Shown: one piece after another, positions 4,753 through 5,040 of the stretch
How positions within the stretch are numbered: the stretch's first letter is position 1
How the letters are laid out: every line of letters begins with the position of its first letter
Virus record (IMG/VR): IMGVR_UViG_3300043803_001772
Length of the DNA stretch: 18,119 bases
Source of the DNA: a virus
Lineage: Duplodnaviria > Heunggongvirae > Uroviricota > Caudoviricetes
Strand: one strand, 5' to 3'
Notes under the pieces: generated by a model
Seen by the model: the letters and a program-made list of their open reading frames with translations, nothing else
Told to the model about the DNA's origin: nothing
Database searches by the model: none
Made by a program: the position numbers and the translations under genes

Positions 4753-5040
4753 GGAAGGACTAATGATTACCTCCAAGTTTCAGAATCACGACTGGTTATT
4801 CATCCACAATCCACACGGGTAATTACTCCTTGTGTTAATGACTGATGGGATTTTGTTTTCCCCACAACGGGCTACGATTTATCATATATTTTAGCTACGG
4901 TCCCGTTACGCTCAAATTTGGGGTTGAACGACCTCAAATTCTCCATAGACTTACCCTCCATGATTCCTACTCCAACCAATATACAACGTTTTTCAACGCC
5001 ATATATTGTGCGTTACAACTAAACTAATCGTTGTTCCGCC
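4753..5040 (-). ncRNA. unassigned ~290-nt structured RNA (element X)
   Basis: 14-bp GAAA-capped hairpin with 3 G.U pairs (4977-5008); 9-bp long-range helix 4959-4967/4782-4790; further hairpins; imperfect 5'/3' end pairing; lies between two tRNAs just after a boxA-like site. Confidence 0.6.

What the first reader, a model, noticed from the sequence alone, without database searches (positions are those of the whole stretch)
4753..5040. Unassigned ~290-nt multibranched RNA between two tRNAs (element X)
It has a 14-bp GAAA hairpin and a 9-bp long-range helix whose G.U pairs work only on the minus strand, at least three more hairpins, a possible ATTGGTT/AACCAGT helix and end-to-end pairing. It sits right after a boxA-like site with AT-rich spacers like those flanking the tRNAs. 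It is shorter than the tRNA-associated phage RNAs GOLLD and ROOL and I do not recognise it. It is the strongest candidate for a new ncRNA family here.
Basis: partly seen in the sequence, partly recalled or inferred. Interest (0 to 1): 0.85.

Follow-up and report, generated by a model that had tools for sequence, protein, structure and literature searches.

The report
Enlarged manA-like phage RNA, probably circular
The flagged gap in a freshwater phage's tRNA operon is a real gene for a ~305-base folded, non-coding RNA: an enlarged distant relative of the cage-forming manA RNA that is abundant in river and lake RNA data, where its two ends are found joined as in a circle.

Summary
Element X is a real structured-RNA gene on the minus strand. 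Its true limits are about 5048-4744, slightly wider than flagged.

- **Fold.** In 45 distinct relatives from viral and metagenome contigs, 40 of 71 predicted pairs show compensatory changes. Shuffles give 17±2.
- **Not coding.** The internal ORF is not conserved: 12 of 45 variants read ATG-stop.
- **Family.** No Rfam family reaches its threshold. manA (RF01745) is the only family that matches X and all six relatives tested, over the full model (window 14.6 bits; relatives up to 32.5 bits, E 1e-6; cut-off 55.2). A small model of X's 5' module finds a genuine cyanophage manA as its best hit. X is therefore an enlarged, divergent manA-type RNA, not an unrelated new class.
- **Operon.** One promoter drives tRNA-Leu(UAA) (with a group I intron), X, a tRNA-like unit and tRNA-Met, then a terminator.
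- **RNA data.** In three of four metatranscriptomes from four studies, contigs cover only X; in the fourth, one contig runs into the neighbouring units. Two runs hold contigs joining X's 3' end to its 5' end, implying circles of 305-307 nt. No DNA locus has such a joint.
- **Ligases.** Two relatives' contigs encode RNA ligases.

Assembly into multimers like manA is inferred, not shown. Earlier agents of this scan reached the same reading on related DNA.

The parts
5393..5420 (-). Promoter-like site TTGACA-16-TAAGAT with TG extension; likely start of the operon that holds X
   Evidence: the same promoter form recurs at 7266 and 6459 in the RNA island. No promoter-like site lies between the tRNA-Leu 3' end and X.
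5074..5351 (-). tRNA-Leu(UAA) split by a group I intron (intron about 5135-5327), the unit upstream of X
   Evidence: Rfam Intron_gpI 74.8 bits, E 1e-17. Exon ends read.
5052..5064 (-). boxA-like AGUUCUUUAACAA just upstream of X
   Evidence: Read. Repeated at 6408 and 7214. Resembles the rrn boxA UGCUCUUUAACAA (own knowledge). Function not tested.
5047..5053 (-). Upstream copy of the 7-nt direct repeat AAUUUAA that brackets X
   Evidence: Read. The 307-nt back-joint falls inside this repeat ('both 7').
4744..5048 (-). The mature RNA as seen in RNA data: 305 nt, or 307 nt with the joint inside the repeat
   Evidence: In X1, X3 and X10 RNA contigs cover about 4740-5048 only; the single X4 contig reaches 4673-5078. 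Back-joints 5048->4744 and 5046->4740.
5042..5047 (-). P1, 5' strand (AGAUAG) of the closing helix
   Evidence: Pairs with 4753-4748; compensatory changes in relatives.
5009..5044 (-). 5' module shared with manA: GUGGCGGAACAA, hairpin P2a (5031-5027/5019-5015), UAACGCA; P2 = 5039-5037/5012-5010
   Evidence: Aligned to manA positions about 20-62. P2 and P2a covary. Model R1 of this module scores 44.2 bits here and finds the manA of phage P-SSM2.
4977..5008 (-). P3: 14-bp hairpin with GAAA (GNRA) loop
   Evidence: Read. Its length varies among relatives while pairing is kept, and the loop stays GAAA or GAAG.
4775..4972 (-). Large central domain closed by P4 (4972-4969/4778-4775 and 4967-4953/4796-4782) and P5 (4950-4943/4809-4802). 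It holds P6 (4941-4931/4924-4914), P7 (4905-4902/4871-4868), P8 (4865-4861/4849-4845, 11-nt loop) and P9 (4834-4828/4818-4812).
   Evidence: Consensus folds and per-pair counts. Most of these helices show compensatory changes.
4881..4885 (-). AUGAU in the P7 loop, complementary to AUCAU in the P10 loop
   Evidence: Complementary in 44-45 of 45 long-type sequences; AUGA/UCAU in 22 of 22 short-type. It never varies, so pairing is neither supported nor refuted.
4754..4774 (-). P10: 5-bp hairpin with the 11-nt loop UAAUCAUUAGU, the hallmark hairpin shared with manA
   Evidence: Separate local manA match to model positions 161-182. The hairpin served as the search pattern, so its constancy is partly by selection.
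4748..4753 (-). P1, 3' strand (CUAUUU)
4740..4746 (-). Downstream copy of the direct repeat AAUUUAA; also the leader of the next unit
   Evidence: Read. The same AAUUUAAAU precedes tRNA-Leu at 5360-5352.
4663..4737 (-). tRNA-like unit (Gly-type ACC anticodon loop, encoded CCA, odd T-arm) directly downstream of X
   Evidence: Read. Not called by ARAGORN.
4578..4654 (-). tRNA-Met(CAU), last gene of the operon
4538..4559 (-). Intrinsic terminator-like hairpin followed by a U run, the end of the operon

Best explanation
X is the gene for a stable, highly structured, non-coding phage RNA of about 305 nt. It is an enlarged, divergent member of the manA RNA superfamily.

**Supported by data here**
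- It is transcribed on the minus strand as one unit of a tRNA operon: promoter 5420-5393, tRNA-Leu(UAA) with a group I intron, X, a tRNA-like unit, tRNA-Met, terminator.
- It accumulates as a separate RNA covering about 5048-4744.
- Contigs from two RNA studies join its 3' end to its 5' end.

**Inferred**
- It is cut out at the AU-rich AAUUUAA repeats that bracket it. The cutting would be done by the host's tRNA-maturing nucleases: RNase E-type cuts in the spacers and RNase P at the next unit.
- The closing helix P1 holds the two ends together.
- A 5'-phosphate/3'-hydroxyl RNA ligase of the phage seals them into a circle.
- Like manA, the folded RNA then builds an RNA-only multimer (ring or cage). 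It would use its conserved loops: the 11-nt loop of P10, the complementary AUGAU of the P7 loop, and the GNRA loop of P3.

What the particle does for the phage is open.

**My odds for each step**
- Real structured RNA gene: 0.97.
- Related to manA: 0.8.
- Circular in vivo: 0.6.
- Multimeric assembly: 0.4.
For: **Structure**
- 13 sequences: 26 of 82 consensus pairs have compensatory changes.
- 45 distinct long-type sequences: 97.9% of cells pair, and 40 of 71 pairs have double-sided changes. Shuffles give 17.1±2.0 and none of 300 reaches 40. Slid partners give 8-15.
- 22 short-type relatives behave alike.

**Not coding**
- 5 non-synonymous to 1 synonymous change, plus a frame-shifting indel, against the nearest variant.
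- ORF length ranges from 1 to 46 codons across variants.

**manA kinship**
- manA is the only family that matches X and all six relatives tested, over the full model 1-192. Scores: 14.6 bits (window), 32.5, 31.7, 31.0, 23.7, 22.2, 22.0.
- L031 reaches E 9.5e-7.
- Shared parts: closing helix, the GUGNCNGAANAA-hairpin-UAACG module, and the hairpin with an 11-nt UAAU... loop.
- Model R1, built from my family's 5' module, ranks the 5' module of a genuine manA first in 111.5 kb (19.5 bits, E 0.037). That manA is from phage P-SSM2 and scores 181.6 bits.

**Operon**
- Promoter and terminator scan; tRNAs and intron.

**RNA**
- 19 metatranscriptome runs hold at least half of the sampled words.
- In three of four runs from four studies, contigs cover only about 4740-5048, with summed depth up to 164, 52 and 420. 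In the fourth, one 414-nt contig covers 4673-5078. The promoter region, most of the intron and the terminator have no cover in any run.
- Back-joints 5046->4740 (side 33) and 5048->4744 (side 38) come from two studies.
- No tandem copy or joint-like arrangement exists in 176 DNA loci totalling 1.29 Mb.

**Ligases**
- Contigs of two X-bearing relatives encode RNA_ligase (PF09414: 97.9 and 86.8 bits).
- One also encodes an Rnl1-type ligase (PF09511, 64.8 bits).
- Neither contig has RtcB.

**Assembly**
- manA RNAs form pentamer-based 8-, 10- and 60-mers through kissing loops and a GNRA-receptor contact (preprint 10.64898/2026.07.01.735769).
Against: - The window's own manA score (14.6 bits) is far below Rfam's cut-off of 55.2, and so are all relatives.
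- A sequence-only reciprocal search (nhmmer) does not find the P-SSM2 manA.
- The central 200 nt of X has no counterpart in manA.
- The RNA evidence comes from assembled contigs, not raw reads. Strand, exact ends and the circular fraction are therefore not measured.
- One joint lies in a 7-nt direct repeat, a place where reverse transcriptase can switch templates.
- The two joints differ by 2 nt.
- One run has a 414-nt contig running from the tRNA-like unit into tRNA-Leu. This is a linear precursor or DNA.
- No ligase gene lies in the window, and the window's whole genome is not held. The ligase genes are in relatives whose RNA island is a mosaic of this one.
- The P7-P10 loop complementarity never varies, so it has no covariation support.
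- No experiment shows multimers for this RNA.
Confidence: 0.7

Rival explanations
1. X belongs to an independent RNA family that merely reuses two small building blocks also found in manA: the GUGNCNGAANAA module and a hairpin with an 11-nt loop. There would be no common descent and no shared overall fold or function.
For: - All manA scores are below the cut-off.
- nhmmer finds no reciprocal match.
- The central domain, about 200 nt, is unmatched.
- The setting differs: a tRNA operon here, against an own promoter upstream of protein genes in P-SSM2.
Against: - The matches span the whole manA model in the same order, including the closing helix, in three divergent subtypes.
- P2 covaries consistently across the families: GCG/CGC, ACG/CGU, GCU/AGC here, and ACU/GGU in manA.
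- The reciprocal small model ranks the true manA first.
Confidence: 0.15
2. X is a linear stable RNA. The end-to-end joints are artefacts: template switching at the AAUUUAA repeat, or mis-assembly.
For: - One joint lies exactly in the 7-nt repeat.
- Only contigs were available.
- A linear 414-nt contig exists in one run.
Against: - The second joint has only 1 nt of shared sequence. It is the only contig covering 5016-5048 in that run (depth 29.8 of 29.8).
- The joints come from two studies.
- A 31-mer assembly cannot join across a 7-nt repeat without reads that span it.
- RNA ligase genes are present in two relatives' contigs.
Confidence: 0.3
3. The RNA acts as a decoy or sponge rather than as a cage. 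It would soak up a host factor during infection: a defence nuclease aimed at tRNAs, an RNA chaperone, or ribosomes via its GGAG runs.
For: - It sits in a phage tRNA island beside odd tRNA-like units.
- It is very abundant in RNA data.
- A circular form would resist exonucleases (own knowledge).
Against: - The GGAG runs lie inside covarying helices (P4, P10) and are not free.
- No partner is known.
- The shared manA modules point to RNA-RNA assembly.
- This reading is compatible with, not exclusive of, the main explanation.
Confidence: 0.2
4. X is a cis-acting element of the operon, not a product in its own right. It could be a riboswitch, as first proposed for manA, or an antitermination or processing platform.
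For: - manA was first filed as a cis-regulatory candidate (PMC2864571).
- A boxA-like site precedes X.
Against: - No protein gene follows. The next genes are a tRNA-like unit and a tRNA, then a terminator.
- The RNA accumulates on its own while its flanks do not.
Confidence: 0.05
5. The conserved feature is the small minus-strand ORF MEGKSMENLRSF...
For: An ATG and 29 codons are present in the window.
Against: - 12 of 45 variants read ATG-stop.
- Lengths range from 1 to 46 codons.
- The start codon is lost in some variants.
- 5 non-synonymous to 1 synonymous change, plus frame-shifting indels.
Confidence: 0.01

Closest known systems
manA RNA motif (Rfam RF01745; Weinberg et al. 2010, PMC2864571; cryo-EM preprint 10.64898/2026.07.01.735769)
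   Same: - A phage-borne ornate RNA.
- A closing helix bringing the ends together.
- The 5' module GUGNCNGAANAA-hairpin-UAACG.
- A terminal 5-bp hairpin with an 11-nt UAAU... loop next to the 3' strand of the closing helix.
- A GNRA-capped helix.
- It is the best Rfam family for every member tested.
   Different: - About 305 nt against about 190.
- A 200-nt central domain (P4-P9) with no manA counterpart.
- Scores well below the family cut-off.
- Freshwater large phages rather than marine cyanophages and Photobacterium.
- Embedded in a tRNA operon without its own promoter, rather than upstream of protein genes.
- Evidence for end-joining.
GOLLD and ROOL RNAs (large ornate RNAs, often beside tRNA genes in phages and prophages; they form RNA-only nanocages: 10.1101/2024.12.08.627333)
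   Same: - Phage-associated.
- Next to tRNAs.
- Ornate multi-helix fold.
- Function unknown.
- Multimeric assembly is known for GOLLD and ROOL and suspected here.
   Different: - No Rfam match to either.
- Less than half their length.
- No shared motifs seen.
T4 stable RNAs C and D (species 1 and 2) of the T4 tRNA cluster (own knowledge)
   Same: Small stable non-tRNA RNAs of unknown function, co-transcribed with phage tRNAs and released by tRNA-processing enzymes.
   Different: They are shorter (about 120-140 nt). No sequence was available here for comparison, and they are not known to be circular or related to manA.
Enzymatically circularised RNAs (archaeal tRNA and rRNA introns joined by RtcB; RNA circles made by T4 RNA ligase 1 in vitro; own knowledge)
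   Same: A helix brings the ends together, and a ligase family able to join them is encoded by related phages.
   Different: There is no bulge-helix-bulge motif, and neither relative's contig has RtcB. A DNA-phage RNA circularised in vivo would be unusual.

Membership tests
manA RNA (RF01745) | Score at or above Rfam's gathering cut-off (55.2 bits) | tested here: not met
   Window 14.6 bits (E 0.15 locally). Relatives 22.0-32.5 bits. A genuine manA scores 181.6 bits.
manA RNA (RF01745) | Closing helix joining the 5' end to the 3' end, directly after the last hairpin | tested here: met
   P1 5047-5042/4753-4748 covaries. It is aligned to the model's bracketed helix in L018, L030 and L031.
manA RNA (RF01745) | 5' module GUGaCUGAAUAA, hairpin, UAAgGu, with the flanking 3-bp helix | tested here: met
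   GUGGCGGAACAA...UAACGCA at 5042-5009. It covaries. Model R1 finds the same module in the P-SSM2 manA as its best hit (19.5 bits, E 0.037).
manA RNA (RF01745) | Terminal 5-bp hairpin with an 11-nt loop (GGUAnnnAnnAAUCC type) | tested here: met
   P10 4774-4754, loop UAAUCAUUAGU; local manA match to positions 161-182. A second hairpin of the same shape is P8.
manA RNA (RF01745) | Central multi-hairpin domain of the model (positions about 66-160) | tested here: not met
   In X this stretch is replaced by a simple GAAA hairpin plus a 200-nt domain that the model treats as insertions.
manA RNA (RF01745) | Homo-oligomeric assembly through kissing loops (preprint) | not testable with these tools
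   Only a conserved loop-loop complementarity, AUGAU/AUCAU, is seen. It is invariant.
GOLLD / ROOL | Match to the Rfam models | tested here: not met
   No match even at E up to 10.
Group I intron | Match to RF00028 and a position inside an exon | tested here: not met
   RF00028 matches 5135-5327 only, not X. X's flanks are spacers, not exon halves.
tmRNA / tRNA | Called by ARAGORN or the Rfam tRNA clan | tested here: not met
   Nothing was called inside 4753-5040.
Covalently closed circular RNA | 3' end joined to 5' end in RNA but not in DNA | tested here: inconclusive
   Two back-joints in RNA contigs of two studies. None in 176 DNA loci. No raw reads and no exonuclease test.

The most novel reading that the evidence does not exclude
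A DNA phage makes, from its tRNA operon, a covalently closed circular RNA that assembles into an RNA-only cage or ring during infection. It would be cut out by tRNA-maturing nucleases, sealed by the phage's own RNA ligase, and would serve a purpose as yet unknown, such as sequestering or protecting something. This would give phage RNA ligases a second natural substrate besides broken tRNAs. It would also be the first circular subunit of a natural RNA assembly.
Probability: 0.3. Interest if true: 0.9.

Novelty: new variant of a known kind. Interest (0 to 1): 0.72.

Why it matters
manA was filed for 15 years as a possible riboswitch, and was reported in 2026 to build RNA-only cages in vitro, with no known role.

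- **What this relative adds.** It sits among tRNA genes with no protein gene to regulate. It accumulates to high levels in natural waters. It seems to be circularised.
- **What that implies.** This argues that manA-type RNAs are trans-acting products, not cis-regulators.
- **Link to other RNAs.** It ties them to GOLLD and ROOL, which are also phage-borne, next to tRNAs, and cage-forming.
- **A testable question.** Is this RNA a natural substrate of phage RNA ligases?
- **Practical use.** The 67 distinct sequences of two size classes give a covariation-backed fold for structure work.

Tried and rejected
- **Rfam.** No match in X at gathering thresholds. At E up to 10, only manA and chance hits appear.
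- **Cultured phages.** blastn of 4500-5500 against 50,697 phage records finds matches only to the tRNA-Met and the intron, not to X.
- **Cellular genomes.** The hairpin pattern hits 14 places in one genome per prokaryote species. None has the 5' module, so all are taken as chance.
- **Whole genome.** None is held for the window.
- **Neighbour-gene approach.** It gave only five loci, three carrying X. Pattern scans worked better.
- **Reciprocal sequence search.** nhmmer of both size classes against the P-SSM2 manA region finds nothing significant.
- **Internal duplication of the 5' module (GUGGAUGAAUAAC at about 4807-4795).** Model R1 gives 9.6 bits, E 1.1, which is not significant.
- **Non-nested covarying helices (pseudoknots).** The search found only invariant or weak candidates.
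- **RtcB.** Absent from both relatives' contigs that could be searched. These contigs are fragments, so this does not show absence from the phages.
- **ORF reading.** Rejected.
- **RNA cover of the flanking tRNAs and the intron.** It is near zero, but contigs and tRNA-unfriendly libraries cannot rank expression.
- **Structure string.** I did not hand the 334-column structure string to the count of structure pairs, to avoid typing a long string. The same measures were computed by script.

Full report
**What is in the sequence.** The window comes from an uncultured phage. It has a virion structural protein, an HNH endonuclease, sugar-nucleotide genes and a SpoU methylase. Seven tRNAs are called on the minus strand. 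A group I intron at 5135-5327 (Rfam 74.8 bits) splits a further tRNA, a Leu(UAA)-type gene at 5351-5074.

A consensus scan finds three near-identical promoters of the form TTGACA-16-TAAGAT. One lies at 5420-5393. The only terminator-like hairpin lies at 4559-4538.

The stretch between them reads as one operon: the intron-bearing tRNA-Leu, the flagged element X, a tRNA-like unit (4737-4663, not called by ARAGORN), and tRNA-Met (4654-4578). That these are co-transcribed is inferred from the layout.

**Checking the observation.** The 14-bp GAAA hairpin is exactly as described (5008-4995/4990-4977). It contains three G.U-type pairs that exist only in the minus-strand RNA.

The minus strand folds to -79.9 kcal/mol, z -2.74 against shuffles. 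The plus strand gives z -1.08.

The end-to-end pairing is real but lies just outside the given limits: AGAUAG 5047-5042 with CUAUUU 4753-4748. The proposed AUUGGUU/AACCAGU helix is not supported, because AACCAGU belongs to another, covarying helix. Only the core of the '9-bp long-range helix' survives comparison.

**Relatives.** blastn against 50,697 phage records matched only the tRNA and the intron. Pattern scans of IMG/VR and JGI metagenomes found the element many times. None of the 14 hits in cellular genomes had the 5' module.

After removing duplicates there are 67 full elements in two size classes:
- 45 'long' elements like X, at 40-99% pairwise identity. They include a GC-rich one only 48% identical to X.
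- 22 'short' elements, about 255 nt. Several start a few bases after a tRNA's CCA end.

**Structure is under selection; the ORF is not.** With 13 sequences, RNAalifold predicts 82 pairs, 26 of them with compensatory changes.

With the 45 long sequences, results are as follows:
- 97.9% of cells pair.
- 40 of 71 pairs show double-sided changes.
- Shuffles give 17.1±2.0, and 0 of 300 reach 40.
- Slid partners give 8-15.

The short class behaves alike.

The helices in window coordinates are:

| Helix | 5' strand | 3' strand | Note |
|---|---|---|---|
| P1 | 5047-5042 | 4753-4748 | closing helix |
| P2 | 5039-5037 | 5012-5010 | |
| P2a | 5031-5027 | 5019-5015 | |
| P3 | 5008-4995 | 4990-4977 | GAAA loop |
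| P4 | 4972-4969 and 4967-4953 | 4778-4775 and 4796-4782 | |
| P5 | 4950-4943 | 4809-4802 | |
| P6 | 4941-4931 | 4924-4914 | |
| P7 | 4905-4902 | 4871-4868 | |
| P8 | 4865-4861 | 4849-4845 | 11-nt loop |
| P9 | 4834-4828 | 4818-4812 | |
| P10 | 4774-4770 | 4758-4754 | 11-nt loop |

The MEGKS... frame fails every coding test. Against the nearest variant there are 5 non-synonymous to 1 synonymous change and a 2-nt indel. 12 of 45 variants read ATG-stop, and lengths range from 1 to 46 codons.

**What family.** No Rfam family reaches its cut-off in X. The best sub-threshold hit is manA (RF01745):
- 14.6 bits over the full model.
- A second local hit of P10 to the model's last hairpin.

An earlier agent's note on related DNA suggested the same family, so I tested it. 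Six relatives from both size classes all match manA over model positions 1-192; no other family matches them all. Scores were 32.5, 31.7, 31.0, 23.7, 22.2 and 22.0 bits. L031 reaches E 9.5e-7 in a local search.

The shared parts are the closing helix, the module GUGNCNGAANAA-hairpin-UAACG, and the 5-bp hairpin with an 11-nt UAAU... loop next to the 3' strand of the closing helix.

For a reciprocal test I located a genuine manA in cyanophage P-SSM2 (181.6 bits). I then built a small covariance model from the 5' module of 23 of my sequences. In 111.5 kb, its best hit is exactly that manA's 5' module (19.5 bits, E 0.037). The next hits are at E 0.44 and above.

The 3-bp P2 helix covaries consistently across the groups: GCG/CGC, ACG/CGU and GCU/AGC in my sequences, and ACU/GGU in the P-SSM2 manA.

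Against this stand three points. Sequence-only nhmmer finds nothing. All scores are below 55.2 bits. The 200-nt P4-P9 domain has no manA counterpart.

I conclude that X is a distant, enlarged relative of manA. It is not a member by Rfam's rule.

**RNA evidence.** 19 metatranscriptome runs hold at least half of the sampled words of 4700-5100. I laid contigs of four runs from four studies on 4520-5440.

Three runs (X1, X3, X10) cover only about 4740-5048. Summed word depths reach 164, 52 and 420. The fourth run (X4) has one 414-nt contig covering 4673-5078, which is a precursor or DNA. In all four, the promoter region, most of the intron and the terminator have no cover.

DNA contamination would cover the flanks too, so this looks like an RNA that accumulates on its own. 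Contigs cannot give strand or level.

Two runs hold contigs that 'go back':
- 5046->4740, with 33 letters on the shorter side and 7 letters ambiguous.
- 5048->4744, with 38 letters on the shorter side and 1 letter ambiguous. In that run it is the only contig covering 5016-5048.

On the RNA strand these join the 3' tail after P1 to the 5' start of P1, giving circles of 307 and 305 nt.

The 7 ambiguous letters are a direct repeat, AAUUUAA, at 5053-5047 and 4746-4740. The same words precede the neighbouring tRNA units, as AAUUUAAAU before tRNA-Leu and before the tRNA-like unit.

No tandem copy or joint-like arrangement occurs in 176 DNA loci totalling 1.29 Mb.

**How it may work (inferred).** Cuts at the same position in both repeat copies, followed by ligation, would give exactly the 307-nt joint. 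The repeat fits the AU-rich sites that RNase E uses in tRNA operons. RNase P at the next unit would also free a 3'-hydroxyl end (own knowledge).

Such nucleases leave 5'-phosphate and 3'-hydroxyl ends. P1 would hold these ends side by side.

Only two X-bearing contigs could be searched whole:
- Both encode a PF09414 RNA ligase (97.9 and 86.8 bits).
- One also encodes an Rnl1-type ligase (PF09511, 64.8 bits).
- Neither has RtcB.

These contigs are relatives with a mosaic island. The window itself holds no ligase gene.

manA RNAs assemble in vitro into pentamer-based 8-, 10- and 60-mers through kissing loops and a GNRA-receptor contact (preprint). X keeps three matching features:
- A GNRA loop on P3.
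- The 11-nt P10 loop.
- A complementary AUGAU (4885-4881) to AUCAU (4767-4763) pair, present in 44-45 of 45 long and, as AUGA/UCAU, in 22 of 22 short sequences.

That loop pair never varies, so it is a hint only.

**Verdict.** X is a real, expressed, structured phage RNA: a new enlarged variant of the manA kind, embedded in a tRNA operon and probably circularised. The earlier agents' readings on related DNA agree with what I found independently on this window. They may rest in part on the same public RNA runs.

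Noticed in passing
window 5074-5351 (-), intron about 5135-5327: A compact group I intron (Rfam 74.8 bits) splits a tRNA with anticodon UAA between U34 and A35. The tRNA has a short variable arm, which is unusual for tRNA-Leu. The intron is 79% identical to one in a 735-kb uncultured phage (LR756501).
   Followed up: partly
window 4663-4737 (-): A tRNA-like unit with 7-bp acceptor stem, ACC anticodon loop and encoded CCA, but a non-standard T-arm. ARAGORN does not call it. It follows X in most long-type relatives.
   Followed up: no
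L031 9453-9520 (+); L044 3551-3610 (+): Pistol self-cleaving ribozymes (52.1 and 36.9 bits, both over the cut-off) lie just downstream of the short-type manA-like RNA: 8 nt behind it in L031 and about 160 nt in L044. The same loci carry phage tmRNA genes. Ribozyme cleavage may take part in processing there.
   Followed up: no
window 7002-7018 (-) versus 4951-4967 (-): A 17-nt word of X (GGAAUCAUGGAGGGUAA) recurs at 88% identity (GGAAUGGUGGAGGGUAA) just after tRNA-Glu, in another unassigned stretch of the RNA island (about 6930-7046). It may be a second structured RNA or a shared module.
   Followed up: no
window 5393-5420, 6432-6459, 7239-7266 (-); 5052-5064, 6408-6420, 7214-7226: Three near-identical promoters (TTGACA-16-TAAGAT with TG) and repeated boxA-like AGUUCUUUAACAA words punctuate the tRNA island. 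Similar GUUCUUUU words precede the short-type RNAs in other phages.
   Followed up: partly
window 5510-6172 (-): An HNH endonuclease gene (PF01844) sits between tRNA genes. In relatives L001-L003 the island differs by insertions of about 125 nt and 1.1 kb, and in G002 it is a mosaic. This is consistent with homing-endonuclease-driven shuffling.
   Followed up: no
window about 4795-4807 (-): A second word like the manA 5' motif (GUGGAUGAAUAAC; CUGACUGAAUAAC in short-type RNAs) sits at the P5/P4 junction. This hints at a pseudo-twofold build, but model R1 does not score it significantly (9.6 bits, E 1.1).
   Followed up: yes
window 13611-16272 (+), 11720-12709 (-): There is a cluster of nucleotide-sugar genes: an RmlA-like nucleotidyl transferase, an RmlD-like reductase and two dehydratase/epimerase genes. 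manA RNAs of cyanophages were first noted near sugar-metabolism genes, but the link here is 7-10 kb away and may be chance.
   Followed up: no
L079 (AACY020486105.1) 44-349: One long-type member comes from a record whose AACY prefix I recall as the marine Global Ocean Sampling set. Its 5' module (GUGACAGAAUAA) is closer to manA's, so the family may not be restricted to fresh water.
   Followed up: no
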